A stretch of DNA of 64,000 bases. Origin: Eubacteriales bacterium. Lineage in GTDB: Bacteria; Bacillota; Clostridia; Oscillospirales; CAG-272. The notes beneath the pieces are model-generated. The model was given only the letters and a program-made list of their open reading frames with translations, did no database searches and was not told where the DNA came from. Made by a program: the position numbers and the translations under genes. Positions 22,435-56,285 of the stretch are shown here, one piece after another; within the stretch, counting starts at the first letter, position 1, and each line of letters opens with the position of its first letter. The stretch spans positions 33,931 to 97,930 of the forward strand of contig JAZNNR010000018.1 of assembly GCA_045580325.1 (NCBI GenBank), in the 5' to 3' direction.

Positions 22435-23762
22435 AGAAAAACGAGCTTTATACAGTAGAAATAAGCGATATGAACAATCTCGGCGCTGGAATATGCAAGA
22501 TCGACGGCAAGGTCGTTTTTGTGCGCGGCGGAGTTACGGGGGACAAGCTTGAAATTGGTATAATCAAAGACCTTTCAGACTACGCTGTCGCCCGTGTGAA
22601 CAAAATAATTGAGCCCTCACCTATCCGAGTCGAAAACACCTGTCCTTCATTCAAGCGCTGCGGCGGATGCTCTTTTCGCCACGTGAATTACGAAAACGAA
22701 AAGCTTTTCAAGAAAAATTACATAGAAAATGCCTTCAAAAAGGTCGGACTTTCGGTAAATATCGAGGACGTGCTTTCGACAGGCTGTCCCGACGGGTATC
22801 GCAACAAGGTACAGTACCCTGTCGGCAAGGATTGGGAGATCGGATTTTTCGCAGAGCACAGCCACGACATAGTTGAGGTTTCCGACTGTCCCTCTCAGGA
22901 CGAGAGCTTTGGCGCGATACTTGACGAGATAGTACGCTTCGGCAAGGAAAAAAAGATTCCGCCTTACGATTTTGAAAGCGGAAAAGGACTTGTTCGCCAT
23001 ATTTATCTGCGTAAAGGTCGCGGAAGCGGCGATATTATGGTCTGCCTTGTCATTAACGGCAAAACGATGCGCGAGGCTCCCGAGCTTGCAAAAATACTCG
23101 TTTCGCGCTTCCCTGCTGTCAAGTCGGTCATACTTAACATAAACGAAAAGCGCACGAACGTCATTCTCGGCGACAAAAACATAACCGTTTACGGAAGCGA
23201 CACCATAGAGGATATTTTCTGCAGACTTAAGGTGAAAATTTCGCCAAAATCATTCTATCAGGTGAACCGCGAATGTGCCGAGCTTATCTGCAAGAAAGCC
23301 GCAGAGCTTGCCGATCTGAAGCCGAGTGAAAAGCTTGTTGACCTTTTCTGCGGAATAGGCACTATCGGACTTTCGATGATAAAAGACTATCCGGAGTCGA
23401 GCCTTATCGGTGTTGAAATAATCCCCGACGCCGTTGAAAACGCCACGGAAAACGCTGCTCTGAATCATATGAAAAATACGAAATTCATCTGCGGTGATGC
23501 AAACTCGCCCGAAATATTCGAGGCCGACGTTATCGTGGTCGACCCGCCCCGCAAGGGCTGTGCAAGCGAGCTTATAAAACGCATTTCCGAGATCTCGCCG
23601 TCGAGAGTTATTTACGTTTCGTGCAATCCCGACACCCTCGCGCGCGACTGCAAGCTCTTTGATGCCGAGGGATACAAGGTTACAAGAGCATTTGCGGCTG
23701 ATATGTTTTCTCGCACGGGGCATGTGGAAAGTTTAGTTTGTCTGACTCGTCAGACAAACTAA
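22431..23762 (+). CDS. rlmD: 23S rRNA (uracil-C5)-methyltransferase, RlmD/RumA family
   Basis: 443 aa. N-terminal TRAM domain, Fe-S cysteines CPSFKRCGGCSF, SAM motif DLFCGIGTIG, DPPRKG and a C-terminal GHVES. The last 9 codons are a perfect 10-bp-stem hairpin (23736-23759). Confidence 0.85.
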   Translation: MKKNELYTVEISDMNNLGAGICKIDGKVVFVRGGVTGDKLEIGIIKDLSDYAVARVNKIIEPSPIRVENTCPSFKRCGGCSFRHVNYENEKLFKKNYIENAFKKVGLSVNIEDVLSTGCPDGYRNKVQYPVGKDWEIGFFAEHSHDIVEVSDCPSQDESFGAILDEIVRFGKEKKIPPYDFESGKGLVRHIYLRKGRGSGDIMVCLVINGKTMREAPELAKILVSRFPAVKSVILNINEKRTNVILGDKNITVYGSDTIEDIFCRLKVKISPKSFYQVNRECAELICKKAAELADLKPSEKLVDLFCGIGTIGLSMIKDYPESSLIGVEIIPDAVENATENAALNHMKNTKFICGDANSPEIFEADVIVVDPPRKGCASELIKRISEISPSRVIYVSCNPDTLARDCKLFDAEGYKVTRAFAADMFSRTGHVESLVCLTRQTN

Positions 23763-23763
23763 A

Positions 23764-24005
23764 GCGATATAAATCCCTCACAGGATTTGCGATATACGCC
23801 TCACTTCATTCGCGTGCGATATGCCTGCGGCTCGATATGTGCCTTCGACACGTGAGCGCACTGCGTGCGCTTTGGGGCGCGGGATTTATATTTGCGTACT
23901 TTCCAGCACGTTCGCCTTCGGCAAACATATCGCTGACAAGCGACGCTTGTCAATATCGCATTTGCAAGGCAAATATATCGCGCTCGGCAACGCTGAGCAT
24001 ATCGC
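23764..24005. repeat. Mirror-image array of (G/T)CGATAT heptamers alternating with variable short hairpins (array A1)
   Basis: GCGATAT at 23764, 23789 and 23816, and TCGATAT at 23832. ATATCGC at 23927, 23953, 23975 and 23999. Each interval holds a different palindrome. Confidence 0.85.
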
Positions 24006-24030
24006 TTACCGAATAAATGAGGTGAATATT

Positions 24031-24384
24031 ATGAATAAAACTATTAAAGAACTTGCAGTTGAACTTACCATAGAAATCACTGCCGTTTGTGATACTATCA
24101 AAGGCAGAGCTGTATTTGTTAGTCAGCTTTTGCGCTCCTGCTCTTCAATAGGTGCAAATAGCTATGAAGCAAAATATGCGCAAAGTACCGCAGACTTTGT
24201 AAATAAACTTGAAATAGCTCTCAAAGAATGTTATGAAACCGACTATTGGCTTGAAATACTGTTCAAGGTAGGCTCAATGGATGAAAACACCTATAAAACA
24301 CTTGCAAATAAATGCGGTATTATTCGCAGAAAACTCATCGCATCCATCACCACAGCAAAGGGGAGCAGTCGAGGACAAAAGTGA
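24031..24384 (+). CDS. Four-helix-bundle protein (23S rRNA intervening-sequence protein family)
   Basis: ATG at 24031 follows AATGAGGTGA. Motifs: SSIGANSYEAKYAQSTADFVNKLEIALKECYETDYWLEIL. The upstream part of track ORF 23821..24384 is read-through of the repeat array. Confidence 0.85.
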   Translation: MNKTIKELAVELTIEITAVCDTIKGRAVFVSQLLRSCSSIGANSYEAKYAQSTADFVNKLEIALKECYETDYWLEILFKVGSMDENTYKTLANKCGIIRRKLIASITTAKGSSRGQK

Positions 24385-24450
24385 TTTTTGAGCAAAACTC
24401 AAAAGTTCGTTTTACTGCTATTTAGTATAACATATGAAAGGAGTAAGGCA

Positions 24451-27137: not shown

Positions 27138-27203
27138 TCGATATGCGCTTCACGCTCGATATGCCGCTTGCGGCTCGATATGTTTTGCCTGACGGCAAAA
27201 CGA
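27138..27203 (+). repeat. Three TCGATAT + hairpin units (array A2)
   Basis: CGATAT at 27139, 27157 and 27176, followed respectively by GCG-cttca-CGC, GCCG-ctt-GCGGC and GTTTTGCC-tgac-GGCAAAAC. Confidence 0.85.
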
Positions 27204-41549: not shown

Positions 41550-44500
41550 TTAGTTCTTCTTTTCAGTATAGTTAGTACCGAAAGAAACCTCAAAGTATGC
41601 CATTCCGAATTCCTGACGTTTTCTTGTAAGCTCCATATTGATATCGTAGATATATTTAAGGAGTTCTTCTTCTGCGTCTGCACCGGCATTATAAAGTTCG
41701 GCATTATAAACTTCGTTGAACGCGAAGGTTACGTAACGGCCGATAATATATCCTCCGGGATATTCTTCAACGCCCACGAGGTTGTTCACCTGTCCCATAA
41801 GGTTGTTATACTCACTTGTTGTCCAAGAGAGGGACGCGAGCGCTTCTTTATTTGCCGTAGTATGCTTATATTCAGAGCCAAAGAGTGCGGTAAGTTCATT
41901 TGCGTAGTCTGCCTGAGTTGCTTCAGAAACATACCACTTCATAAACTTCCATGCAAAGTTTGTAAGGTGTTCAGATCTGTCATCGTCAGCAAGCATAATG
42001 ATTGCCGAAACGTTTACAACTGCATCGTTGTTTTCGGAAACTGTTCCGTCTTCGTTGTACGTTGTCCACGCAGGAAGCGGAACGAACTCCCAAAGTCCCT
42101 GAATTTCAGTTGCAAATATGCTGAGGTGTGTATATGTTGAGTAAGCCATAATGCCTATCGGAATTTCACCTGTACGGAAACGGTTAGGGAAATCGTAGAT
42201 AAGCGGCTGACCAAAGTCTGTAAAGAGTGATGTAAGATACGAGAAGGATGCAAGCGCCTTATTACTGTCGAAGTTGATTCTTCTACCGTCATCTGCATAA
42301 CGTGTACCTCCCATCTGATAGAGGAAGAGATCAAGTCCTGCGAGATACGACGGGAATGCGATCTGCATGTTATTCTCACTGAGAGTATCCATTACAGTTT
42401 TCATTTCGTCCCAGGTCTTAGGAACTGTAAGTCCGAGCTCGTTAAGAACGTCCGCGCGGTAGAACATCATATAGAAGTCAAGCGTTTCGGGAAGTCCGTA
42501 TATTGTCTCGGAGCGAACCTCTTTACCTTTTTCATCAATTCTGAGGTCATAAAGAGTAACGGGAACCCACGTTGCAGGTGAGAACCAGCTCTGGAGCTCG
42601 TCAAATCCTTCAAATTCGTCAAGCGGCTGAACCGCGCCACGTATAGCCCAGTTGATTACGTCGCCCGCAATATGTCCGTGCGATACGTCAGGTCCTACGC
42701 CTGCAAGAACCGAAGGAAGAAGCGCACCGGGTGCAACGAGCTTAAGGTCAACGTTTGCTTCTGTATAGTTCTTTGCAAAATCAGAGTTTATGAGGCTTCT
42801 GAGAACCTGTGCCTGGTCGCGTCCGAGCGTTGTCCAAACCTCAATTTTGTTGTTGGGGTCGGAAACAACGGTAGCACCGAGCTGGCTGTAATCAGACGTA
42901 AAGCTCTTGAAGAACTGGCAAATTTCAAACCAGATAGCCTGGAAGAAGTTTGCGTTTGCCTTGGGAAGCTCTTCACTTCCGGGTGTTCTTACTATAATGT
43001 AGTCAAGCTCAAGAGGCTGCTTTGCGCAGTTCTGGATCCAAGAACCGACAGTTCCGAGGTTTTCCTTAAGGTTATCAACGTTTGCTGCAACCTTGGAATC
43101 ACTTTCACCCATACGCTCGAGAAGCTGTGCAACAGTTCTGAGTGTCGCGGTGTACGAACCGCCGCTTCCAACCTCTTTCTGAAGCTTATCCGCGATGTCG
43201 TAAAGCTTCTTTGACTGTGCGAGAAGCTCGTTCATTTCGTTAGGAATAACGTTATAGAAGCCGTAGTCGCGGTATTTATCGGGGTCAGTACCCGTTATCA
43301 TAAGGATCTTTACGTATATATCTGTTATCGTATTAAGCGATTCGGTAACATCGAGAAGGATGTCAGCCATATCTCCGAGTCCTGCTTCGAGCTCGATATA
43401 GTTTGTTCCCTTTTCGAGATATACCTTATATGTAACGAGTTCTCCGTTCTTATCCTTCTTAGCGCTGTTGATGACCGAGGTCTGCCAAGAATCGTCAAAG
43501 TTAAATCTAAGGTAGTTTGCTTCTTTAAAAGGAACGATTGCATCTTCGCCGTTATTTATCATGCTCTGTGTAGCAACACGAATAATACGCGAAGAGAATC
43601 CACCTTCGTTTACCGACTGACGGAAACGAAGAACTATTTCATAGAAGCCGCTTTCGTCAACGTTTACAGTGTAGCGTGCCCACTGTCCGACACCCTGCCA
43701 CTTTTCACCGCCGTCGCCGCCGATAGCGTTAAGATACTGAATATAGGGCGACTGAGGTTCGTTGATCGAGCTTGTTCTGTCTGCGAAAGGATATACGGTA
43801 GTTTCAGATGTTGCGGTAGGATATTCTGCCTGAAGCTTCAGATAGAAATCTGCAACGTCCTTAGCACCGCTACTCTCCCAATGCTTAACGTACTCGTCAT
43901 ACGAGAACTCATCTGTTTCGTAGTCGTACGGGAATATCTCAACCTCAAGCAGTACCATAGCTTCGCGCTGTGCCTGAAGCTGAATGGTATTTCTTCCTGC
44001 GGGGAAATAGAACTGAAGAGCTTCGATATGGTATCCCGAAGAGTCGGTAGCAACGTATGTAGAAACCTCGTCTACCATGATCTTTCCGGGCTTGGATTCA
44101 TTTCCGTCTATATCGTTTGCAAATACAGGGTAAGCATAAAGTCCTTTTGTATCGGTAAGCTTTTCGCCTGTTTTCTTGAATGTGAGCGCATTATTTTCAA
44201 TAGTACGCTCGAGTATGTTGCCTTTAACGTCAACGTATTCGTAAACGATCTTACCGTTATCACTTACATAGCGGTATATTACGTTTCCGTCCGCGTCAAG
44301 CTGATATGTGTCCATATCGTCCTTCCAGACCTTTGTCAAGGTAAGGTAACGCGCTTCGTAGTAAGGAACTTCCTCGTTGATGTAGAAGGTTCTCTCTATT
44401 GAGGTTGCCTTGGATGCTTCCTCAGCGATCGGTACGTACTTGAATTTAACTGCGTACATACCCTCCTTCATATCAAACGGAATATCCCAACCGACTATAC

Positions 44501-44828
44501 CGTCGGAAGGAAGATAGAGTCCCTTATAATCTTTCCCTGCGGAGTCCTTGAACTCGAGGGTTTTAAGTAAATCGACGTCAACACTAGTAATATCTTTATT
44601 ATAGCTTATGATGTCATCACCGGTGAGAATATAGTTTTCTGTACCCTTCTCTACTCCTTCATGCTCAATGAGGTAATCCTTATATTTGGAAACCTTCAAT
44701 AACTCAGAAAGAGAAGCAGACTGATAGCCATCGTCTGTTTCGGCTGCCGCAGTAGCAGTACTCGGCACAACGAGAACAAGAACAGCGAGCAAAAAAGCTA
44801 TAATCCTACATTTTTTTGAATAGGCCAT
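41550..44828 (-). CDS. Giant extracellular solute-binding protein (N-terminal beta-rich/CBM-like region plus C-terminal family-1 SBP domain)
   Basis: 1092 aa with a signal peptide. The C-terminal ~450 aa has SBP_bac_1-like blocks (IEVWTTLGRDQAQVL, GLPETLDFYMMFYRADVLNELGL, PKTWDEM). First gene of the operon. Confidence 0.75.
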   Translation of the reverse strand: MAYSKKCRIIAFLLAVLVLVVPSTATAAAETDDGYQSASLSELLKVSKYKDYLIEHEGVEKGTENYILTGDDIISYNKDITSVDVDLLKTLEFKDSAGKDYKGLYLPSDGIVGWDIPFDMKEGMYAVKFKYVPIAEEASKATSIERTFYINEEVPYYEARYLTLTKVWKDDMDTYQLDADGNVIYRYVSDNGKIVYEYVDVKGNILERTIENNALTFKKTGEKLTDTKGLYAYPVFANDIDGNESKPGKIMVDEVSTYVATDSSGYHIEALQFYFPAGRNTIQLQAQREAMVLLEVEIFPYDYETDEFSYDEYVKHWESSGAKDVADFYLKLQAEYPTATSETTVYPFADRTSSINEPQSPYIQYLNAIGGDGGEKWQGVGQWARYTVNVDESGFYEIVLRFRQSVNEGGFSSRIIRVATQSMINNGEDAIVPFKEANYLRFNFDDSWQTSVINSAKKDKNGELVTYKVYLEKGTNYIELEAGLGDMADILLDVTESLNTITDIYVKILMITGTDPDKYRDYGFYNVIPNEMNELLAQSKKLYDIADKLQKEVGSGGSYTATLRTVAQLLERMGESDSKVAANVDNLKENLGTVGSWIQNCAKQPLELDYIIVRTPGSEELPKANANFFQAIWFEICQFFKSFTSDYSQLGATVVSDPNNKIEVWTTLGRDQAQVLRSLINSDFAKNYTEANVDLKLVAPGALLPSVLAGVGPDVSHGHIAGDVINWAIRGAVQPLDEFEGFDELQSWFSPATWVPVTLYDLRIDEKGKEVRSETIYGLPETLDFYMMFYRADVLNELGLTVPKTWDEMKTVMDTLSENNMQIAFPSYLAGLDLFLYQMGGTRYADDGRRINFDSNKALASFSYLTSLFTDFGQPLIYDFPNRFRTGEIPIGIMAYSTYTHLSIFATEIQGLWEFVPLPAWTTYNEDGTVSENNDAVVNVSAIIMLADDDRSEHLTNFAWKFMKWYVSEATQADYANELTALFGSEYKHTTANKEALASLSWTTSEYNNLMGQVNNLVGVEEYPGGYIIGRYVTFAFNEVYNAELYNAGADAEEELLKYIYDINMELTRKRQEFGMAYFEVSFGTNYTEKKN

Positions 44829-44941
44829 TAGTTTTTCCTCCTGATAGAAATGGTTTTGCGATTAGTGCAGACTTTTTTCCTACTTTTTAACGGATGGTTC
44901 TGACTTTTAAGCAGCTTCTCTCATACAAGCCGTAGAAAAAC

Positions 44942-44987
44942 AAAAAAATCGCCGACAACGCACAGTTCGCGCAGGCGTCGCCGCGAT
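44942..44987 (-). terminator. Leader terminator (attenuator) inside the 5' UTR of the ABC/unknown operon
   Basis: Minus-strand RNA AUCGCGGCGACGC-13 nt loop-GCGUUGUCGGCGAU forms 13 bp with one bulge, followed by U7. It lies between the promoter (45024-45052) and the ATG (44828). Confidence 0.55.
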
Positions 44988-45023
44988 TTTTCGAAGTTAT
45001 ATTGTCTGCGAACTGTTGTAGAA

Positions 45024-45052
45024 ATAATAACACATTTCTTTAAAATTGTCAA
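45024..45052 (-). promoter_or_regulatory. Sigma-A type promoter of the 44828..32000 operon
   Basis: On the minus strand: TTGACA, 17 nt, TATTAT. Confidence 0.6.
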
Positions 45053-45501
45053 GAGACCATTATTTACATAATAGGTATAAAAAGTCCGTACACAAGGTAA
45101 ATATCTCCCTTTTGTACTACTTTTTTCAAGACCGTTTTTTTAAATCATTTTTTCCGAGTGTTCACACTGTGCCTTGCGTTTCAAATTTCGGATTCAGGTC
45201 TTTATCTACTCTTGGGGTTATTTCTCTGAAAATTCGGGAAATTTGGTTTGGTTTTGTCCGTTTTTAGTGTTTTACAGCATATTATACTCTTTTGGGCATA
45301 CTGACGAATATTTTAAAAACCTATTTTTTTCATATTTTTTACACTTTAATCATTTGTAAAATTTGCACAATTTTCGAGCCTTTTTTTCTACATTTAGACG
45401 AAAATCATTTTTTGCAAAATTTCATTGATTTTTTCTATATTTTTTGCTCTTTTTTCTTTATTTTTATCAATTTCCTTTGTTATACTTTTTTAATTTTGCT
45501 A

Positions 45502-45530
45502 TTGACAAATCATACTCGGGGTGTTATAAT
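45502..45530 (+). promoter_or_regulatory. Consensus sigma-A promoter of the small sigma-like gene
   Basis: TTGACA, 17 nt, TATAAT; both hexamers are perfect. Confidence 0.7.
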
Positions 45531-45578
45531 AAAAATACGAACATTTGTTCTTTTATCAGAAAGGAGATTTTACCCGTA

Positions 45579-45935
45579 ATGTCAAATTGGCTGTTCAAAT
45601 TTGAAAAATACCGTTCAGACAAAATGCTGCTTGAAACACACAGATCGCATCTGAAAACACTTCTCGATGATTATGGATACGCGCGGGAAGACAGCAGGGT
45701 CGTGCCTGTAATAAATGCGATTTCCGAACTTGAAATCTCCCTTGAAGATACCGAAAGTCAGCTCGACTCTTATGTTGCAAGTGCGTCCACTCCGCGCGAA
45801 GCCGCAAAACGTGCCGACGAAAAGCTTTTTTTAACCTATCGGTACATTCACAATATGACTATGGAAGAAACGGCGGAAGAAATGTGTGTAAGCAGAGATA
45901 CGGTATACCGCATACGAAGACGTATTGCAAACTAA
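45579..45935 (+). CDS. Small sigma-70 region-4-like HTH protein (118 aa)
   Basis: ATG at 45579 follows AAAGGAG. The C-terminus LFLTYRYIHNMTMEETAEEMCVSRDTVYRIRRRI matches the region 4.2 HTH pattern. The upstream part of the track ORF is AT-rich junk. Confidence 0.65.
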   Translation: MSNWLFKFEKYRSDKMLLETHRSHLKTLLDDYGYAREDSRVVPVINAISELEISLEDTESQLDSYVASASTPREAAKRADEKLFLTYRYIHNMTMEETAEEMCVSRDTVYRIRRRIAN

Positions 45936-45996
45936 CCTTTTTAACCCATTTTAGCTTTAAACAGCTCAAATATTTTCATTTTTCTTTTAAATCTAC

Positions 45997-46025
45997 TTGA
46001 CAAAATGCTCACTTGGTGCTACAAT
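45997..46025 (+). promoter_or_regulatory. Promoter of the T-box leader
   Basis: TTGACA (45997-46002), 17 nt, TACAAT (46020-46025). Confidence 0.65.
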
Positions 46026-47823: not shown

Positions 47824-48606
47824 TTACAAACTCTTTAATATCCTATGTTCTATAAATTTTGCAACACCATCGGCATCGTTGCTTTCTATAACATAATCAG
47901 CAACAGATTTAACTTCATCAATTCCATTGGAAACAGCAATACCCAACCCGCACATTTTTATCGGTTCAATATCGTCTTGGTCATCTCCAAAATAGGCCGT
48001 TTCATTAGGAGAACAGTTACAAATATCCAGCATTGCCTTAATGCCATTCCACTTTGTTGCTGTTGTGTTCATTATTTGCAATAAATAACCATGAGCAATT
48101 GTATAATGCAAATCTTCTGTCAATTCTTTTTTGACAAAGTAAAGTGTTTCCTCGCTGTCAAGGTGAACCAGTATTTTTAATACGCCTTCCTTGTTGGCAA
48201 TGCCAATCAAATTGTTTGAAACAATTGTTTTGTAATCTTCAATAGGATGATTTGAGTATGCACGGTCTCCTGTTTCGAGGGTAATTCGAAGATTAGGATA
48301 GCATTTTAACGCATTCAATAAATGCTCGGCACTTCTTTGACAGATAGCATAATCCACTTGTTGATTTCTGTGGATTATTCTTGCACCATTGGAAACAACC
48401 ATTGCATCAAAGCCAATCAAATCACCAAATTGTTTTGTTGTACGTAATGGTCTGGCTGTGGCAACCATGATGTTAATTCCACGTTTCTTACATTCTTTAA
48501 GGACTTTGATAGTACGCGCGGATAGGGTTTTATCTGTATGTAGCAAAGTTCTATCTAAATCCACGACAATAGTCTTAACACTTGCAGTGTTTATCATTGC
48601 TATCAC
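47824..48606 (-). CDS. Cof-type HAD-IIB family hydrolase
   Basis: 260 aa. Motif I VVDLDRTLL and motif IV FGDDQDDIEPIKMCGLGIAVSNG. Confidence 0.85.
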   Translation of the reverse strand: MIAMINTASVKTIVVDLDRTLLHTDKTLSARTIKVLKECKKRGINIMVATARPLRTTKQFGDLIGFDAMVVSNGARIIHRNQQVDYAICQRSAEHLLNALKCYPNLRITLETGDRAYSNHPIEDYKTIVSNNLIGIANKEGVLKILVHLDSEETLYFVKKELTEDLHYTIAHGYLLQIMNTTATKWNGIKAMLDICNCSPNETAYFGDDQDDIEPIKMCGLGIAVSNGIDEVKSVADYVIESNDADGVAKFIEHRILKSL

Positions 48607-48628
48607 ATCCTTTCGTCAAATTGGAATT

Positions 48629-48952
48629 TTACATTCTAATTTCCGTATGAAAATATTGTTCTTGAAATGCAACTTGCCGCATAATTTCATCTTTTGTAAA
48701 GGATACACCTTCTGGTGCTACAACCCACTTTTCTTCTATGTCATCATATCTATGAATGATGGCAATTACTTTGCCACTAAACTCTTTAATGGGTTCATTT
48801 ACGCCAACTATGTATGCATCTTGTTCTTCTCCGTCAGCAGCTACAATACCCTCTATATAGCCGTAGTTGACAGAATAGTAGATGTCTTTATGCTCTGGAT
48901 GATATGTTCCTAATGGGCGATCAACAATAACCTTAACAAATTTTCCTAACAT
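48629..48952 (-). CDS. Small inorganic-pyrophosphatase-like protein
   Basis: ATG at 48952 follows GAGGT by about 6 nt and gives MLGKFVKVIVDRPLGTYHP...NYGYIEG...DGEEQDAYIVG...RYDDIEEKWVV, which resembles short PPase-family proteins. The alternative start at 48982 overlaps the upstream stop. Confidence 0.6.
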   Translation of the reverse strand: MLGKFVKVIVDRPLGTYHPEHKDIYYSVNYGYIEGIVAADGEEQDAYIVGVNEPIKEFSGKVIAIIHRYDDIEEKWVVAPEGVSFTKDEIMRQVAFQEQYFHTEIRM

Positions 48953-48978
48953 TTTAACCTCGACAAAACAGAATTTGT

Positions 48979-49203
48979 TCATTTCTTTTTCTTGTTAAGA
49001 TAGATAATAACGGCAATCAAAATGGCCACAATTATTGCCGAAATCAATCCACCAACGATCAGCCAATGTGTTTGGTAAGTAAGAAATCTAGCAGTAGGGC
49101 CATCTGCACCACCGATAATGCCAACGGATGAGGCTTCATTGTTACAACCACCAAGGCACAATACAAGAATTAATAATGAAACAAAAATCATTAACTTTTT
49201 CAT
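48979..49203 (-). CDS. Small lipoprotein with a C-terminal TM anchor (74 aa)
   Basis: ATG at 49203 follows AAAGGAG. Lipobox LILVLCLGGC. C-terminal hydrophobic helix plus a KKKK tail. Confidence 0.6.
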   Translation of the reverse strand: MKKLMIFVSLLILVLCLGGCNNEASSVGIIGGADGPTARFLTYQTHWLIVGGLISAIIVAILIAVIIYLNKKKK

Positions 49204-49246
49204 ACACGGACACTCCTTTGTCAAGTTTTTCAACCTATTAGACCTA

Positions 49247-49413
49247 TTCAAGTTTATCGATTAGATACCTAAGTGAAATAATTATATCATAAAAATTCCA
49301 AAAAGTAAATAGGACGGCTCAATTTTTTACAAATTGAACCGCCCTACGTCTTGTAGGGACAGGCGTCCTCGACTGTCCGCTTATTACGGCGGCAGCAAGC
49401 CACCGCCCTACAA
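49247..49413 (+). repeat. E1+P module copy 1 (REP-like element fused to a leftward promoter and shared 5' UTR)
   Basis: About 97 percent identical to 52373-52531 (roughly 5 substitutions and one 8-nt indel by hand alignment). Core: CCGCCCTAC-gtctt-GTAGGGACAG-gcgtcctcga-CTGTCC...GGCGG-cagcaagcca-CCGCCCTAC. Confidence 0.9.
49281..49309 (-). promoter_or_regulatory. Promoter carried by E1+P copy 1, driving the lipoprotein/PPase-like/HAD operon
   Basis: On the minus strand: TTTACT, 17 nt ending TGa, TATAAT. Confidence 0.65.
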
Positions 49414-49519
49414 AAAGAGTCATAATGATTCTATTAAAAACCGTTATGACTCAAAAAGATTGCAAAACATTGCAATTCTAAATAATTTATGGTACAATGT
49501 AAAAGAGGAGCGTGAGTAT

Positions 49520-50392
49520 ATGGAACTGTATGCAAGTGATATGTTCTTTCGTGGCGGTAACGAAAAAGAACAAGCATATGATTGTTGTATTCATGGAAAT
49601 ATTATTTTTAAAATTGGGGATAATTTACTCTCTGATAACACAGAGTGGTGTGTAAGCGCCTCGGCATATAGGTTCTTGCATACTCTCTTTGAAAATCATT
49701 TTATGGGTGCAGAAGAGTTTATGATTTCTTGTTGTGGACATTTTATGGTTCCGTCGGAAGATAAAATGTCTGTAAGTATCGTCGGTTGCAGTAATGGTAT
49801 TGATTTCAACATTATTCACGAAGACGAAAGCATTACCATTGTAACAGCAGATGATGCTGAATATCATATTCCCTTTGAGGACTATAAAAAGGCGGTTATA
49901 TCTTTTGCTGAACAAGTAATGGACTTCTACAAAGCAAACCCACCCCGTGAGTTTGAAGACGATTTTAACAAAGACGGATATAGTGCTTTTATCACCGAGT
50001 GGTATTCGCTATATGACAAAGCAATTTCAATGCTGAATGAGATTCCGAAAATCAATCCCATTACTTTTGAAGATTATGAAGCTTGCACTGAAAATGAAAT
50101 TACGGGTATAAGTAAGGCAGGAATATCGCTTAAATCATTTGGTTTTATCAATTTCAAAGAGTGTGCATATAATTTTAAGCAAACAGAGGGCGGTTCGGGA
50201 AAGTGTGTCGGAGAAAGAGAAATCACAAACCTTTCATTTACTTTCTACACATCGCCCAAACCGATTATGATTAAGTTCATTGAGAAAAACAAGTTTATTG
50301 AGTTTATCACAAAAGAAAACACGATATATCGTTTTAATAAACTCCAAAAAGAGATTTTGAAATATGGATATAGCACAAGAGATATGACATAA
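49520..50392 (+). CDS. Hypothetical protein (290 aa)
   Basis: ATG at 49520 follows AAGAGGAG. Its own promoter is TTGCAA, 17 nt, TACAAT at about 49470-49497. The first 62 codons of track ORF 49334..50392 are read-through of the E1 repeat. Confidence 0.7.
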   Translation: MELYASDMFFRGGNEKEQAYDCCIHGNIIFKIGDNLLSDNTEWCVSASAYRFLHTLFENHFMGAEEFMISCCGHFMVPSEDKMSVSIVGCSNGIDFNIIHEDESITIVTADDAEYHIPFEDYKKAVISFAEQVMDFYKANPPREFEDDFNKDGYSAFITEWYSLYDKAISMLNEIPKINPITFEDYEACTENEITGISKAGISLKSFGFINFKECAYNFKQTEGGSGKCVGEREITNLSFTFYTSPKPIMIKFIEKNKFIEFITKENTIYRFNKLQKEILKYGYSTRDMT

Positions 50393-50404
50393 TAAGGAGG
50401 CTTT

Positions 50405-50683
50405 ATGTCACATAGTAAATATAATAAAAGAGGTCACTCACTATATTTAGATAATTGGAATCCGAATGCAAAAAAATATATCAACGAATGCAAAATATGC
50501 GGATATAAAGGTTATAGTCCTGCAATAGAAGAATCCGACTTTTTAAGCAACAGCGACAAAGATCTCTTTACATTTTCAATTAACAAGGCAATATATGAGG
50601 AATTGACCAAAACATTTTCCGCGTTAGAATTGGATGAGTACGGTCGTTGTAAGGATTGTGCAAGAATTCAAGATAAAAAGTAA
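50405..50683 (+). CDS. Hypothetical zinc-ribbon-like small protein (92 aa)
   Basis: Two Cys pairs (CKICGYKG and CKDCARIQ) and RBS AAGGAGG, 12 nt after the upstream gene. Confidence 0.6.
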   Translation: MSHSKYNKRGHSLYLDNWNPNAKKYINECKICGYKGYSPAIEESDFLSNSDKDLFTFSINKAIYEELTKTFSALELDEYGRCKDCARIQDKK

Positions 50684-50690
50684 TTAGATA

Positions 50691-50727
50691 AAAATGGCTA
50701 TGACATTCCGTGTGTCATAGCCATTTT
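50691..50727. terminator. Bidirectional terminator after the 49520-50683 gene pair
   Basis: AAAATGGCTATGAC-9 nt-GTCATAGCCATTTT. Confidence 0.75.
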
Positions 50728-50733
50728 AAAATA

Positions 50734-50770
50734 ATTTGCACCAAGTTTGCACCAAAGCACAAAACCAAGC
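50734..50770. repeat. Fragment of boundary module B (TTTGCACCAA direct repeats)
   Basis: ATTTGCACCAAGTTTGCACCAAAGCACAAAACCAAGC, compared with GTTGCACCAAATTTGCACCAAAATCACACCAAC at 51695-51727. Confidence 0.6.
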
Positions 50771-50779
50771 ATAAGAAAA

Positions 50780-50812
50780 CCCCGAAAACCGTGATGGTTT
50801 CGGGGTCTTTGA
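50780..50812 (-). terminator. Probable terminator downstream of the GNAT gene
   Basis: CCCCGAAA-10 nt-TTTCGGGG, with TTTTCTT following on the minus strand. Confidence 0.55.
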
Positions 50813-50906
50813 ATACTCTTTGAAATAATACAGGTCATCTCTTTTTTCGGGGGATTAAGCACGCCGTTTGACACCGTAAATAACATTCTGCAAAGAATTT
50901 GCCAAA

Positions 50907-51359
50907 TCACTTTTTCATCTCCATATAAGGAATAACCTCGTAGCCGCATTTTTTATAAACGTTCACGGCTCTTTCGTTTTCTTCTTCGACTTCCAAGCGA
51001 AATATTGCCCCGGGGTACTTATCTTCAATGAATTTAAGAAAACGGCTTCCGATTCCCAAGCCTCTATACTCGGTTTTAATATATATATCCTCGCTCCACA
51101 TACACGGCTTTCCGAATTCTGTGGAAAAGCTTTTGGCAACCATAGCGTATCCTTGTATTTCTTCTGCGTTTTCAAAAATATATCCTTCAAGATACGGATT
51201 ATCACTAAGGCAGGCATTTATGTCTGCTTCGAATATTTCCTGCGAGCCGTTAGTTAATACCGCAGGAGAAGCATAGAAGACTCTCATCATTTCGAGAACC
51301 TGTCCTCTGTCCTTCTCTTCCATACCTCTGATTACACTTTGCACTTTATTTGCCTCCAT
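50907..51359 (-). CDS. GNAT-family N-acetyltransferase
   Basis: Acetyl-CoA motif EYRGLGIGSRFLKFIE. The track start at 51389 lies inside the -10 box of the upstream promoter, so ATG 51359 (MEANKVQ) is preferred. It has no clear Shine-Dalgarno. Confidence 0.8.
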   Translation of the reverse strand: MEANKVQSVIRGMEEKDRGQVLEMMRVFYASPAVLTNGSQEIFEADINACLSDNPYLEGYIFENAEEIQGYAMVAKSFSTEFGKPCMWSEDIYIKTEYRGLGIGSRFLKFIEDKYPGAIFRLEVEEENERAVNVYKKCGYEVIPYMEMKK

Positions 51360-51387
51360 ATTGAAATTCGGGTTATTTATCGTGTGC

Positions 51388-51416
51388 ATTATACCATAAT
51401 TTCGGCAAAAAGTAAA
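51388..51416 (-). promoter_or_regulatory. Promoter carried by E1+P copy 2, driving the GNAT gene
   Basis: On the minus strand: TTTACT, 17 nt ending TGg, TATAAT. Confidence 0.65.
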
Positions 51417-51512
51417 TAGGACTTTTTACAAATTGAACCGCCATACGTCTTGTAGGGACAGGCGTCCTCGACTGTCCACCTGTTACGGCAGCAGTAAGCT
51501 GCCGCCCTACAA
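51388..51512 (+). repeat. E1+P module copy 2
   Basis: AAAAAGTAAATAGGACTTTTTACAAATTGAACCGCCATACGTCTTGTAGGGACAGGCGTCCTCGACTGTCC...GGCAGCAGTAAGCTGCCGCCCTACAA. The second hairpin has compensatory changes (GGCAGC/GCTGCC versus GGCGG/CCGCC). Confidence 0.85.
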
Positions 51513-51516
51513 CCAA

Positions 51517-51578
51517 AACAGACCCCACAAAACCGTGAGGTCTGTAAAAATATTGTTCGAAGAACTTATCTCTTTGAG
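51517..51578 (-). repeat. Copy 3 of the rpsI tail plus terminator (module T)
   Basis: The minus strand reads TCA AAG AGA TAA (S K R stop), then GTTCTTCGAACAATATTTTT, then hairpin ACAGACC..GGTCTGT. It is near-identical to the sequence after the real rpsI stop. Confidence 0.85.
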
Positions 51579-51596
51579 TTTTAGCAATACCGTTTG

Positions 51597-51683
51597 ATAT
51601 CGTGAATATCGTGGAAATATCGTGTGATATCGTGCATTTATCGTGTGTTTTCGTGCGATATCGTGAATATCGTGAGTATCGCC
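51597..51683 (-). repeat. Nine phased (A)TATCGTG / CACGATAT repeats with a period of about 10 bp (array A3)
   Basis: TCGTG begins at 51600, 51609, 51620, 51630, 51641, 51651, 51661, 51670 and 51679. Spacings are 9, 11, 10, 11, 10, 10, 9 and 9. Confidence 0.9.
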
Positions 51684-51689
51684 CTATAA

Positions 51690-51760
51690 AGTGTTGCACC
51701 AAATTTGCACCAAAATCACACCAACATTCAACGCTGTTCTGCTCGACAAATTGGAATTTG
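51690..51760 (-). repeat. Cassette 3'-boundary module B (long form)
   Basis: The minus strand after the TGA of the 51761 gene reads CAAATTCCAATTTGTCGAGCAGAACAGCGTTGAATGTTGGTGTGATTTTGGTGCAAATTTGGTGCAAC. Confidence 0.7.
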
Positions 51761-52363
51761 TCATTTTGTAACACACCAAATAGCTAATGGCACATAGCAG
51801 CTCACTAATACGAGTCTTTGCCAAAGACCACCGTGTCTCAAAACAGTATTTGCGAATTTTTCTTTCTCCCCCATAATGAAGAAGCAGAAGAACAAGAACG
51901 TTGCAATAAAGCTAACAAGCGAGATCGCTCCCATAATTATATCTCCCGCTTGAAACTGCATTATTGCCAAGAGCAACGGTACAGCAATTAATGTCATAAA
52001 TCCGATCGCAGAAGCACCGCCGTGAATTTTAGTCAGTGCATCCTCGTCTTGTCTGTTCTCGTTCAATGGACAAAAGCCCGAAATAATCTCACAGCCGATA
52101 CCGTATATTGCAAGTAATATCCATATTGCGATTGCCAAGCCACCGATGTTTTCTTGATACAACGCATACGGAGCAATACAGAAAACGACACCCGAGAGAA
52201 TGCACCACACATTGTAAATCCACTTCACAGGACTTTGCCGTGAGCCCAGTACCGAGAGTGCCATTTCTTTATGCTTATAGTTTGGATAAAAATGCGCAAG
52301 CAACAATGGTAGTAGATTATCTGCTACCAAAATAATAATCCATAATATTTTCATGTATTTCAT
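51761..52363 (-). CDS. Integral membrane protein (DUF998-like, six TM helices)
   Basis: 200 aa, hydrophobic throughout. The N-terminus ILWIIILVADNLLPLLLAHFYPNYKHKEMALSVLG resembles DUF998 as I recall it. Confidence 0.65.
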   Translation of the reverse strand: MKYMKILWIIILVADNLLPLLLAHFYPNYKHKEMALSVLGSRQSPVKWIYNVWCILSGVVFCIAPYALYQENIGGLAIAIWILLAIYGIGCEIISGFCPLNENRQDEDALTKIHGGASAIGFMTLIAVPLLLAIMQFQAGDIIMGAISLVSFIATFLFFCFFIMGEKEKFANTVLRHGGLWQRLVLVSCYVPLAIWCVTK

Positions 52364-56212: not shown

Positions 56213-56285
56213 GCTGGTATGGCTCAGTTGGTAGAGCAGCTGATTCGTAATCAGCAGGTCGCCGGTTCAAGTCCGGCTACCAGCT
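56213..56285 (+). tRNA. tRNA-Thr (anticodon CGU)
   Basis: Acceptor stem GCTGGTA/TACCAGC, D-loop AGCTCAGTTGGTAGAGC-like, anticodon arm GCTGA-TTCGTAA-TCAGC, T-arm GCCGGTTCAAGTCCGGC. No encoded CCA. Confidence 0.9.

What the first reader, a model, noticed from the sequence alone, without database searches (positions are those of the whole stretch)
23736..24030. Mirror-image array of GCGATAT heptamers, each paired with a different short hairpin, between rlmD and a four-helix-bundle gene
Four (G/T)CGATAT motifs lie on the plus strand at 23764, 23789, 23816 and 23832. They face four on the minus strand, seen as ATATCGC at 23927, 23953, 23975 and 23999. Spacing is 16-27 bp.
Every interval is filled by a different palindrome: AAATCC/GGATTT, ACGC/GCGT, GCC/GGC, GTG/CAC, AGCGCA/TGCGCT, GTTCGCC/GGCAAAC, TGACAAGCG/CGCTTGTCA, ATTTGC/GCAAAT and GCTCGGC/GCTGAGC. 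So there is a fixed short motif and a fixed ability to fold, but unrelated stem sequences.
The array starts 2 nt after the rlmD stop, and the last 9 codons of rlmD are themselves a perfect 10-bp hairpin. It ends 26 nt before a gene of the family first found inside 23S rRNA intervening sequences. The same unit type recurs at 27138-27203, and in compressed form at 51597-51683.
The array is not coding; the ORFs across it are junk such as ...AICLRLDMCLRHVSALRALW.... It is not a CRISPR and not a simple tandem repeat. Possible roles are a phased protein-binding array, ssDNA hairpin substrates for an HUH-type enzyme, or a large processing stem. I cannot distinguish between these from sequence.
Basis: seen in the sequence. 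Interest (0 to 1): 0.65.

Follow-up and report, generated by a model that had tools for sequence, protein, structure and literature searches.

The report
Hairpin-spaced heptamer array before four-helix-bundle gene
The mirror-image GCGATAT/hairpin array is real: it is a GCGAUAU variant of the uncharacterised gut 'Gut-1' RNA motif and the conserved leader of a 23S-IVS-type four-helix-bundle gene, a gene family that sits next to mirror-image heptamer repeats in several phyla.

Summary
The array at 23764-24005, plus a 15-bp hairpin at 23732-23763, is one copy of a bipartite element.

- **Spread:** I found more than 100 distinct copies in gut and rumen Clostridia (Oscillospirales) MAGs and metagenomes.
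- **Anatomy:** HP0, then four [GCGATAT + hairpin] units, then box X, then ATATCGC linkers separated by three hairpins.
- **Covariation:** All seven local hairpins covary strongly. So does a long-range helix (S0) between GATAT + the 5' arm of HP1 and box X.
- **Relation to Gut-1:** The left half is a variant of Rfam Gut-1 (RF01706). It scores below threshold here, but bona fide Gut-1 copies with GTGATAT linkers lie in the same genomes.
- **Link to the gene:** All six protein-selected contexts of this PF05635 subfamily carry the element, with the last heptamer next to the ribosome-binding site.
- **Other phyla:** PF05635 genes in Bacteroides and Xanthomonadaceae are bracketed by mirror-image heptamer arrays without hairpins. 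The Coxiella 23S IVS has heptamers and a 28-bp RNase III stem.

My best reading (about 0.45) is a transcribed RNA operator or processing leader whose heptamers are the working sites and whose hairpins are neutral spacers. An unexplained mirrored strand asymmetry, with GNA triloops, keeps a single-stranded-DNA, REP-like reading alive. It is a new variant of known kinds.

The parts
23732..23763 (+). HP0: perfect 15-bp hairpin abutting the first heptamer. Its 5' arm is the last conserved RlmD codons (S-L-V-C-L). Its 3' arm is their reverse complement, which encodes the tail and the stop codon.
   Evidence: I1. An equivalent perfect hairpin of at least 7 bp abuts G1 in 76 of 100 composites. It is present in all 4HB-linked loci.
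23764..23851 (+). Left half: G1 23764-70, HP1 23771-88, G2 23789-95, HP2 23796-815, G3 23816-22, HP3 23823-31, G4 (TCGATAT) 23832-38, HP4 23839-51. This part is the Gut-1-like region.
   Evidence: Rfam Gut-1 scores 22.7 bits on 23762-23843. Covariation of HP1-HP4 is shown.
23855..23871 (+). Extra hairpin (AGCGCAC / GTGCGCT) specific to the window's clade.
   Evidence: I23. It is conserved in L361 and L370.
23881..23891 (+). Box X (GGGATTTATAT). It is complementary to 23767-23777 (ATAT + the 5' arm of HP1) and forms the long-range helix S0.
   Evidence: I4. A:X is fully complementary in 84 of 106 elements with about 10 arm variants. S0 is 96.1% paired, and 8 of 13 pairs show compensatory change.
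23892..23926 (+). Clade-specific spacer plus a hairpin (GTTCGCC ttc GGCAAAC, 23910-23926). Most relatives have X directly followed by ATATC-ATATCGC here.
23927..24005 (+). Right half: C1 23927-33, HP5 23934-52, C2 23953-59, HP6 23960-74, C3 23975-81, HP7 23982-98, C4 23999-24005 (ATATCGC linkers).
   Evidence: Gut-1 scores 17.3 bits on the minus strand. Covariation of HP5-HP7 is shown.
24018..24384 (+). Shine-Dalgarno sequence (GAGGTG, 24018-23) and the four-helix-bundle gene (24031-24384, 117 aa, PF05635).
   Evidence: Pfam E = 7e-21. PDB 2RLD E = 6e-19. AF2 gives four helices. Foldseek matches 2RLD and 2GSC.
24386..24440 (+). Terminator-like hairpin (TTTTGAG caaaa CTCAAAA + T-rich tail) and the conserved right-end motif of the module. 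In relatives this reads ...tataacATATCGaagg; in the window it is degenerate.
   Evidence: DNA similarity to L361, L370 and L086 ends here.
27138..27203 (+). Second, single-sided array: three TCGATAT + hairpin units between an alpha/beta-hydrolase gene and an LCM-type methyltransferase gene. A REP-like E1 copy precedes it.

Best explanation
The array is a transcribed, structured non-coding element. It is a GCGAUAU-linker member of the Gut-1 class of 'heptamer + variable hairpin' arrays, and it forms the roughly 270-nt leader of an IVS-type four-helix-bundle (PF05635) gene.

**Working parts.** The working sites are the repeated heptamers. Each hairpin is a sequence-free spacer whose closed base keeps neighbouring heptamers side by side. 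The array is therefore equivalent to the uninterrupted tandem heptamers that flank PF05635 genes in other phyla.

**Two competing folds on the sense RNA.**
- A 'ladder', in which the four GCGAUAU linkers pair with the four AUAUCGC linkers (4 x 7 = 28 bp, the size of the RNase III stem of 23S IVSs).
- The S0 helix (GAUAU + the 5' arm of HP1 with box X), which leaves the AUAUCGC linkers single-stranded.

**Proposed action (inferred).** The pentameric four-helix-bundle protein binds the free heptamers. The last heptamer lies 2-5 nt from its own Shine-Dalgarno sequence in most relatives (12 nt in the window), so binding would autoregulate the gene and/or direct processing of the rlmD-4HB transcript.

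**Dispersed copies.** Copies without the gene are non-autonomous derivatives that lie just after stop codons.

**Status of each step.**
- Shown: the anatomy, covariation, gene linkage, orientation, and promoter placement in some loci.
- Inferred: transcript folding, protein binding, and the regulatory outcome.
For: **Family and structure.**
- More than 100 distinct composites share the same order of parts.
- Local hairpins are 90.3% paired against 68.2% in shuffles. They show 359 double-change cells against 104, and slid controls give 22-44%.
- S0 is 96% paired with compensatory changes.

**Gut-1 relationship.**
- The Gut-1 model aligns end to end on both halves.
- Gut-1 seed sequences with flanks show the same bipartite layout with GUGAUAU / AUAUCAC linkers.
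- True Gut-1 hits (57 and 65 bits) lie in genomes that also carry the GCGATAT form.

**Evidence for transcription in the sense direction.**
- The upstream gene is co-directional in 73 cases against 17. Tandem-gene contexts split 26:8, and convergent against divergent contexts split 30:6.
- G1 starts 7-30 nt after a stop codon.
- Near-consensus sigma-A promoters sit immediately before HP0 in L045, L164 and L057.
- The Shine-Dalgarno sequence follows C4 within a few nucleotides, so the 4HB mRNA must contain the right half.

**Gene linkage.**
- The 4HB gene is downstream in at least 17 pattern-selected loci and in 6 of 6 protein-selected contexts.
- The 4HB gene and rlmD are the only recurrent neighbours.
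- The 4HB protein is 70-93% identical where RlmD is 39-45% identical.

**Cross-phylum pattern.** Bacteroides has AATTGAC x4 with its complement, and Xanthomonadaceae have GGGAATC x4 with its complement, bracketing PF05635 ORFs. Coxiella has heptamers GACAGAT and a 28-bp RNase III stem, and S23p is a pentamer (PMC4990558).

**Folding and linker complementarity.**
- RNAfold minimum-free-energy structures give the ladder.
- In every linker family the right linker is the complement of the left (GTGAATT / AATTCAC, GTGATAT / ATATCAC).
Against: - **No direct data.** There is no expression, binding or processing evidence.
- **Ladder untestable here.** The heptamers never vary within this subfamily, so the ladder cannot be tested by covariation.
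- **Pairing cannot be the basic function.** Single-sided arrays (at least 31) and short forms (1 G-linker against 13 C-linkers in L137) exist.
- **Strand asymmetry.** G-type arrays, which are sense to the upstream gene, carry A.C rather than G.U mismatches (29:8) and UNC loops. The right half carries G.U (17:4), tandem G.A pairs and GNA loops. Half of the element therefore looks selected on the antisense strand, which a simple sense-RNA model does not predict.
- **Several linker families per genome.** One protein cannot read them all.
- **Copy number.** The usual number of heptamers is 4, not the 5 expected for a pentamer.
- **ORF position.** In the window the ORF lies outside the mirror repeat, not inside it as in IVSs.
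- **Coxiella.** S23p is probably not even expressed in Coxiella (PMC4990558).
Confidence: 0.45

Rival explanations
1. **Single-stranded-DNA, REP-like mobile element.** The units are ssDNA mini-hairpins next to a conserved heptamer. An unidentified enzyme (HUH/RAYT-like or other) recognises them and copies, shuffles or moves the arrays. RNA-level effects would be secondary.
For: - On the favoured strand the loops are GAA, GCA, GTA, GGA or AAA closed by C-G, often as GCGAAGC or GCGCAGC. Tandem sheared G.A pairs occur in a CGAG/CGAG context. From my own knowledge (Hirao 1994; Yoshizawa 1997), d(GCGNAGC) mini-hairpins are unusually stable in DNA, and I recall the matching RNA triloops being less stable.
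- The favoured strand flips between the two halves (left A.C 29 against G.U 8; right G.U 17 against A.C 4). One transcript does not explain this.
- The element is multi-copy, with near-identical copies in one contig (L121, L361).
- Array length varies from 3 to 13 units.
- Hairpins are replaced wholesale between relatives whose 4HB is 93-96% identical.
- HP0 is an inverted copy of the flanking gene end.
- The module was copied with a pseudo-rlmD end into other contexts.
- Its location at gene 3' ends matches that of REP/BIME elements.
Against: - No transposase or HUH gene lies next to any array examined.
- Stems differ between units, unlike REPs, which keep one palindrome that their enzyme reads.
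- These genomes already hold a classical GTAG-type REP family.
- Orientation relative to transcription is strong.
- The element sits between a promoter and the Shine-Dalgarno sequence of 4HB.
- Neither strand pattern fits exposure of one lagging-strand template across both halves (my reasoning).
Confidence: 0.2
2. **Protein-independent RNA structure.** The element would act as a processing, insulating or stabilising module. The 4 + 4 complementary heptamers and the hairpins would make an RNase III-type or exonuclease-blocking structure. This would separate or stabilise the upstream mRNA and the 4HB mRNA, as 23S IVS stems are cut by RNase III. The 4HB protein would be only cargo.
For: - IVSs that carry PF05635 ORFs have a 28-bp terminal stem cut by RNase III. 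That RNA is thought to matter more than the protein (PMC4990558).
- 4 x 7 = 28 nt on each side is the commonest form (60 of 106 are 4+4).
- Minimum-free-energy folds pair the linkers.
- The element sits right after stop codons, is enriched between convergent genes and depleted between divergent ones.
- In Bacteroides and Xanthomonas the cassette sits inside operons (araD-araA, accB-accC), where harmless RNA-level removal would be needed.
Against: - The hairpins break the 28 bp into four 7-bp helices joined by four-way junctions. In such junctions the linker helices are opposite arms and should not stack into one long helix (my reasoning), so recognition by RNase III is doubtful.
- Single-sided arrays cannot pair.
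- The 4HB protein is under strong purifying selection (70-96% identity), which does not fit idle cargo.
- Strict invariance of all eight heptamers is more than pairing requires.
Confidence: 0.25
3. **Double-stranded-DNA protein-binding array.** The heptamers would be oriented sites for a DNA-binding protein (an operator, iteron or nucleoid site), and the palindromes would be incidental.
For: - The heptamers are invariant and oriented, in two facing groups.
- The same CGATAT core occurs in the 10-bp tandem repeat at 51587-51674.
Against: - Spacing between sites is irregular (16-27 bp here, 13-42 bp in the family), so there is no helical phasing.
- Hairpin potential is maintained by hundreds of compensatory changes. 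Duplex DNA binding gives no reason for that.
- Loops show strand-specific composition.
Confidence: 0.05

Closest known systems
Gut-1 RNA motif (Rfam RF01706; Weinberg et al. 2010, PMC2864571)
   Same: - It has the same architecture: three to four 7-nt linkers (GUGAAAU or GUGAUAU), each followed at once by a hairpin of free sequence.
- It comes from the same habitat and, as shown here, from the same genomes (L113, L120).
- Seed sequences with flanks already contain the X box and the mirrored AUAUCAC half.
- The Rfam model aligns over its full length to both halves of the window element.
   Different: - The linker here is GCGAUAU, and scores (22.7 and 17.3 bits) are well below the gathering score of 50.
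- Gut-1 was defined as the left half only, with no organism, no gene context and no function given.
- HP0, the right half, helix S0 and the link to the PF05635 gene are not part of the published motif, as far as the paper and its supplement show.
23S rRNA intervening sequences carrying a PF05635 (S23p) ORF, e.g. Coxiella burnetii IVS (PMC4990558)
   Same: - It belongs to the same protein family.
- Heptamer repeats lie just upstream of the ORF.
- Complementary repeat blocks total 28 nt.
- It behaves as a small cassette that travels between contexts.
   Different: - The window element is not in rRNA. The window has no rRNA.
- The heptamers are separated by hairpins.
- Both repeat blocks lie upstream of the ORF instead of bracketing it.
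- RNase III cutting is untested here.
Operon-inserted PF05635 cassettes in Bacteroides (araD-araA; aminotransferase-DAHP synthase) and Xanthomonadaceae (accB-accC), seen here
   Same: - A four-helix-bundle gene sits between co-directional host genes.
- It is flanked by about four tandem heptamers and about four copies of their complement.
   Different: - The heptamers are contiguous, with no hairpins.
- The heptamer sequences are unrelated (AATTGAC, GGGAATC).
- The complement block lies downstream of the ORF.
- I do not know of a published description of these cassettes. Searches of the held literature found none.
REP/BIME elements and their RAYT transposases
   Same: - A short conserved motif lies next to a hairpin.
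- Units occur in inverted groups.
- The elements are extragenic, lie at gene 3' ends and are multi-copy.
   Different: - REPs keep one palindrome sequence per family and a GTAG motif, and they cluster around a RAYT gene.
- Here the stems are all different, the motif is a heptamer, and no HUH gene was seen.
Repeat-RNA / ring-protein operators such as TRAP with its (G/U)AG repeats (own knowledge)
   Same: Several copies of a short single-stranded motif would be presented to a symmetric oligomer. The last site lies next to the ribosome-binding site.
   Different: This is purely an analogy. No binding has been shown, the protein fold is different, and the usual number of repeats (4) does not match a pentamer.

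Membership tests
Gut-1 RNA motif (RF01706) | Covariance-model score at or above Rfam's gathering score (50 bits) | tested here: not met
   22.7 bits (+, 23762-23843) and 17.3 bits (-, 23948-24034).
Gut-1 RNA motif (RF01706) | Three to four conserved 7-nt linkers, each directly followed by a hairpin whose stem covaries | tested here: met
   The model aligns end to end. Hairpin covariation is shown. The linker is GCGAUAU rather than GUGAAAU or GUGAUAU.
Gut-1 RNA motif (RF01706) | Occurs in gut bacteria alongside recognised members | tested here: met
   Gut-1 hits of 64.7 bits (L113) and 57.2 bits (L120) lie in MAGs that also hold GCGATAT arrays. Some seed sequences contain GCGAUAU linkers.
23S rRNA intervening sequence (IVS) element | Inserted in helix 25 or 45 of the 23S rRNA gene | tested here: not met
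   The Rfam scan of the window finds only one tRNA. The element lies between rlmD and the 4HB gene.
23S rRNA intervening sequence (IVS) element | Carries a PF05635 ORF | tested here: met
   Pfam E = 7e-21.
23S rRNA intervening sequence (IVS) element | Terminal inverted repeats form a continuous stem of about 28 bp that encloses the ORF | tested here: not met
   The 4 x 7 nt complementary linkers exist. They are interrupted by hairpins, and both sets lie upstream of the ORF.
23S rRNA intervening sequence (IVS) element | Excised by RNase III | not testable with these tools
REP/BIME with RAYT | GTAG-type tetranucleotide plus one conserved imperfect palindrome per family | tested here: not met
   All stems differ within and between copies. 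The motif is a heptamer.
REP/BIME with RAYT | Cognate Y1/HUH transposase gene flanked by the repeats | tested here: inconclusive
   None appears among the neighbours examined. Whole genomes were not available.
CRISPR array | Direct repeats of about 23-50 nt, unique non-palindromic spacers, cas genes | tested here: not met
   The repeat is 7 nt, the 'spacers' are palindromes of 9-20 nt, and the repeats occur in both orientations.
Diversity-generating retroelement (Avd + RT + TR/VR) | Avd-type four-helix-bundle gene next to a reverse transcriptase and a template/variable repeat pair | tested here: not met
   The neighbours are RlmD, two ORFs without Pfam hits, a hydrolase and a methyltransferase. 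Avd structures match only weakly (E = 0.2-0.5).
Type III toxin-antitoxin (ToxIN-like) | Identical tandem repeats of about 34-36 nt before an endoribonuclease gene | tested here: not met
   The units are not identical. The protein is a PF05635 bundle with no histidine and no Rx4-6H motif (sequence read).

The most novel reading that the evidence does not exclude
PF05635 four-helix-bundle pentamers would be sequence-specific readers of heptamer repeats. 'Heptamer array + 4HB gene' units would then form one widespread class of small selfish or self-regulating cassettes. The class would include 23S rRNA IVSs, operon-inserted cassettes in Bacteroides and Xanthomonadaceae, and the Gut-1-type hairpin-spaced arrays of gut Clostridia.

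In the Clostridial branch the hairpins between heptamers would be actively replaced. They differ completely between relatives whose protein is 93-96% identical. The arrays would spread as gene-less derivatives, possibly through a single-stranded-DNA intermediate. That would explain the mirrored GNA-loop asymmetry.
Probability: 0.3. Interest if true: 0.85.

Novelty: new variant of a known kind. Interest (0 to 1): 0.68.

Why it matters
Three long-standing loose ends may be one phenomenon.

- **Gut-1.** It has sat in Rfam since 2010 as an RNA motif with no host, no context and no function.
- **PF05635.** This family ('23S rRNA IVS protein', 'S23 ribosomal protein', Avd-like) numbers many thousands of genes with solved pentameric structures and no known role outside DGRs.
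- **Heptamer repeats in IVSs.** They were noted once in Coxiella and never explained.

**What this window adds.**
- It gives Gut-1-type arrays a host clade: Oscillospirales of animal guts.
- It gives them a full anatomy: HP0, nested G-units, helix S0 and C-units.
- It gives them a fixed protein partner.
- It suggests that heptamer arrays are the common denominator of PF05635 genes across phyla.

That makes the function of both the RNA motif and the protein family directly testable, with binding assays, leader-reporter fusions and transcript-end mapping.

The hairpin-spaced design is also unusual in its own right. A conserved linker, a conserved ability to fold, freely replaceable stems and a strand preference that flips at the centre have no established mechanism.

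Tried and rejected
- **Chance or composition.** Rejected by shuffles and a blind k-mer/hairpin scan.
- **Phage or viral origin.** Only 1 of 120 viral pattern hits is a true array.
- **Invertible (phase-variable) left half** between the inverted repeats GATAT+A and A'+ATATC. I found 0 inverted forms among about 110 centres with enough flank.
- **Kissing loops** between left (UNC) and right (GNA) hairpins. There is no within-element complementarity beyond chance; the best pair gives p = 0.004 uncorrected over 12 tests.
- **Divergent promoters at the centre.** The consensus scan finds none on the + strand. The TATGATATAAAT-like box is lost in the GAATTCC, GCATTCC and GGATCC subfamilies.
- **Chi-like site.** GCGATAT outside the arrays shows no strand skew or excess.
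- **HEPN-type RNase or type III toxin-antitoxin.** The protein has no histidine.
- **DGR.** No reverse transcriptase is nearby.
- **The third locus (51587-51674) as a compressed copy.** It is a 10-bp tandem repeat without hairpins.
- **Strand assignment from helix S0.** G.U 11 against A.C 6 is not decisive.
- **Literature.** Searches for a described function of Gut-1, or of non-DGR PF05635 proteins, found none.
- **The window's exact 4HB protein** is not on record in the assemblies index.
Full report

Yes. GCGATAT occurs on the + strand at 23764, 23789 and 23816, with TCGATAT at 23832. It occurs on the - strand at 23927, 23953, 23975 and 23999.

The window holds 26 copies against 12.2 +/- 3.0 in dinucleotide-preserving shuffles, and none of 100 shuffles reaches 26. 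Seven copies lie within 242 bp, where about 0.05 is expected (my Poisson estimate gives P around 1e-13).

Every interval holds a hairpin that begins right after one heptamer and ends right before the next. A blind scan of all 64 kb, for any 6-mer repeated at least three times with hairpins of 4 bp or more in between, returns only this locus.

- The hairpin at the end of rlmD has perfect 15-nt arms (23732-23746 / 23749-23763).
- The four-helix-bundle ORF starts at 24031.
- 27138-27203 is a genuine second, one-sided array.
- 51587-51674 is a plain 10-bp tandem repeat without hairpins.

**2. A family, not a one-off.**

I estimate about 145 chance hits in 596 Gb. About 50 of the 120 loci carry true heptamer-hairpin arrays. 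All of those come from gut or rumen Clostridia MAGs: Oscillospiraceae, Ruminococcaceae, Acutalibacteraceae, Faecousia and 'Eubacteriales'.

A metagenome scan for the central junction plus the right half added more, giving 106 distinct composite elements. Only 1 of 120 viral pattern hits is a true array.

The common order of parts is:
- HP0;
- [GCGATAT + HP1-4];
- a short spacer;
- box X;
- ATATC;
- ATATCGC-HP5-ATATCGC-HP6-ATATCGC-HP7-ATATCGC.

Sixty of the 106 are exactly 4 + 4 heptamers. The window copy differs by two extra hairpins and a spacer around X, which its closest relatives share.

**3. Structure is under selection.**

I aligned 46 diverse composites (A2).
- The seven local hairpins are paired in 90.3% of cells against 68.2% in shuffles (0 of 500 shuffles reach the observed value).
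- They show 359 double-change cells against 104.
- Sliding the 3' partners by 1-3 columns drops pairing to 22-44%.

Box X is the complement of GATAT plus the 5' arm of HP1 (window 23767-23777 with 23881-23891).
- X tracks that arm perfectly in 84 of 106 elements, across about ten arm variants.
- As a helix (S0) it is 96.1% paired, with compensatory change at 8 of 13 pairs.

S0 and HP1 exclude each other. In short forms (L137, L192, L207, L124) S0 is a plain 12-bp hairpin. In composites the G-type units therefore sit inside the loop of S0, and their number ranges from 0 to 5.

**4. Relation to Gut-1.**

Rfam gives no hit at gathering level in the region. The Gut-1 model (RF01706) nevertheless aligns end to end to the left half on + (22.7 bits) and to the right half on - (17.3 bits), against a gathering score of 50.

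Its consensus is GUGAAAU-hairpin repeated. The published Stockholm file, which includes flanks, shows seed members with GUGAUAU and GCGAUAU linkers, an X box and a mirrored AUAUCAC half. The paper says only that Gut-1 occurs in human-gut metagenomes and no sequenced organism.

Bona fide Gut-1 hits (64.7 and 57.2 bits) lie in L113 and L120, MAGs that also carry GCGATAT arrays. Other linker families occur in the same genomes: GTGAATT / AATTCAC, GTGATAT / ATATCAC, GTGAAGT, AATGATGT and TCTCCC. In the mirrored (composite) ones the right linker is the complement of the left.

**5. Position and orientation.**

With the element oriented G-half to C-half:
- The nearest upstream gene is co-directional in 73 cases against 17.
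- Tandem-gene contexts are 26 forward against 8 reverse.
- Convergent contexts number 30 against 6 divergent.
- G1 usually starts 7-30 nt after a stop codon.

A perfect hairpin of at least 7 bp (HP0) abuts G1 in 76 of 100 elements.

In rlmD loci the 5' arm of HP0 is the conserved C-terminal coding sequence (HVE[ST]V.CL). The 3' arm is its reverse complement, which encodes a species-specific tail. The stems stay perfect although RlmD is only about 40% identical between these genomes.

One-sided arrays show the same bias: 18 against 8.

**6. Link to the four-helix-bundle gene.**

The ORF at 24031-24384 is PF05635 (E = 7e-21). Its nearest solved relatives are the pentameric 2RLD and 2GSC. Avd matches only weakly.

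- **Recurrent neighbours.** Among flanking genes of composites, only this gene (downstream) and rlmD (upstream) recur. The gene follows the element in at least 17 pattern-selected loci.
- **Conservation.** The protein is 70-93% identical where RlmD is 39-45% identical.
- **Unbiased test.** Six protein clusters chosen by protein similarity alone (76-96% identity) all have the composite directly upstream.
- **Leader status.** The last heptamer lies 2-5 nt from the Shine-Dalgarno sequence in most relatives (12 nt in the window), so the mRNA must include the right half.
- **Promoters.** In L045, L164 and L057 a near-consensus sigma-A promoter sits immediately before HP0. There the whole element is the leader.

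Close relatives of the window's module lie in unrelated neighbourhoods (L361, L370). They match window 23721-24440 at 78-80% nucleotide identity and keep a pseudo-rlmD end (THVESLVCL codons). L361 holds three modules in 5 kb: one without the gene, and one with a different linker. The module is therefore copied between sites.

**7. The same theme in other phyla.**

- **Bacteroides.** PF05635 genes related to 2RLD sit inside operons (araD-araA; aminotransferase-DAHP synthase). Upstream they have (AATTGAC)x4 followed by mirrored copies. Downstream they have (AATTGTC)x4, the complement.
- **Xanthomonadaceae.** The gene sits between accB and accC. (GGGAATC)x4 lies upstream, and its complement runs up to the accC start codon.
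- **Coxiella.** The 23S IVS has a 28-bp terminal stem cut by RNase III, with the S23p ORF in the loop. It also has three or four tandem GACAGAT heptamers before the ORF, whose number varies between strains (PMC4990558).

Four heptamers make 28 nt. I found no paper that states this as a general rule.

**8. An unexplained asymmetry.**

Counting each distinct hairpin once:
- The left half carries A.C 29 against G.T 8 on the top strand.
- The right half carries G.T 17 against A.C 4, plus 78 G.A cells, largely tandem G.A in a CGAG/CGAG context.

Loops are TTC, TGC or TGAC on the left and GAA, GCA, AAA, GTA or GGA on the right. They are closed by C-G, often as GCGAAGC or GCGCAGC. One-sided G-type arrays behave like the left half.

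Each half therefore looks optimised on the strand that runs outward from the centre. From my own knowledge, d(GCGNAGC) mini-hairpins are exceptionally stable in DNA. This keeps a single-stranded-DNA reading alive.

Neither replication-strand exposure nor a single sense RNA explains both halves. An inversion switch, kissing loops and central promoters were tested and not supported.

**9. Turnover.**

The window, L370, L361 and L086 have 4HB proteins 93-96% identical to one another. Between them the centre and the left hairpins are conserved, but HP5-HP7 are largely different sequences and extra units appear. Array length ranges from 3 to 13 units. A limited set of stems recurs across loci. Units seem to be replaced or shuffled rather than slowly mutated; this is an inference.

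**10. What it most likely is.**

*Identity (high confidence).* It is a GCGAUAU-linker, bipartite member of the Gut-1 class, and the conserved leader of a PF05635 gene. Gene-less copies are scattered after stop codons.

*Mechanism (about 0.45).* It is a transcribed RNA in which the heptamers are the working sites and the hairpins are neutral spacers that keep them adjacent. This makes it equivalent to the uninterrupted heptamer arrays of other phyla. Two exclusive folds, the linker-linker ladder (minimum-free-energy folds) and S0, would hide or expose the AUAUCGC linkers. The pentameric protein is the obvious candidate reader, and it would autoregulate through the heptamer next to its Shine-Dalgarno sequence.

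*Rivals.*
- A protein-independent processing or stabilising structure of the IVS / RNase III kind (0.25).
- A REP-like ssDNA element (0.2).
- A duplex-DNA binding array (0.05).

None of the functional steps is shown.

**11. Novelty.**

It is a new variant of known kinds (Gut-1; IVS-type PF05635 cassettes). Three things appear to be new: the physical link between the two, the complete anatomy, and the cross-phylum pairing of PF05635 genes with mirror-image heptamer arrays. All three are testable.

Noticed in passing
It looks like a classical REP (GTAG + hairpin). It is sometimes adjacent to heptamer arrays here and in L022, L060 and L107. No RAYT gene was looked for.
   Followed up: partly
window 51587-51674: A 10-bp tandem repeat (ATATCGTGNN x 8.8; CACGATAT on the minus strand) lies between a GNAT acetyltransferase gene and a DUF998 gene. 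It shares the CGATAT core but has no hairpins. It is helically phased, so it is possibly a protein-binding array of another kind.
   Followed up: partly
L371-L376 (Bacteroides-type metagenome contigs), about 1435-1500 and 1852-1932: PF05635 genes are inserted inside the araD-araA and aminotransferase-DAHP synthase operons. They are bracketed by (AATTGAC)x4 and its complement (AATTGTC)x4, which could form a 28-bp stem enclosing the ORF.
   Followed up: partly
L377-L380 (Xanthomonas, Dyella), about 1125-1200 and 1531-1575: A PF05635 gene sits between accB and accC. GGGAATC-type heptamers x4 lie upstream, and their complement lies downstream, running straight into the accC start codon.
   Followed up: partly
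L361 123-476, 1464-2216, 4090-4400: Three paralogous modules lie in 5 kb and share left and right ends. One has the GCGATAT composite without the 4HB gene, one has it with the gene, and one has GTGAAGT / ACTTCAC linkers. Each begins with a pseudo-RlmD C-terminal coding fragment that forms HP0. A 93-aa GIY-YIG gene lies beside the third module.
   Followed up: partly
L137 1399-1664: A 13-unit array of GCGATAT + hairpin ends in a plain 12-bp S0 hairpin. It is the longest array seen, and its units look like recent duplicates.
   Followed up: no
window 44001-46000 and 48001-52000: G+C drops to 0.36-0.38 against 0.43-0.49 elsewhere. E1 copies and the 10-bp repeat lie in this stretch, and a tRNA lies at 56213-56285. 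It is possibly an acquired segment.
   Followed up: no
window 23732-23763: The last ten codons and the stop codon of rlmD are themselves the two arms of HP0. The protein's C-terminal tail is therefore dictated by the hairpin. In some relatives the ORF instead ends at the TAA inside GCGATATAA.
   Followed up: yes
L008 2376-2458: A ZMP/ZTP riboswitch (61 bits), unrelated to the finding.
   Followed up: no
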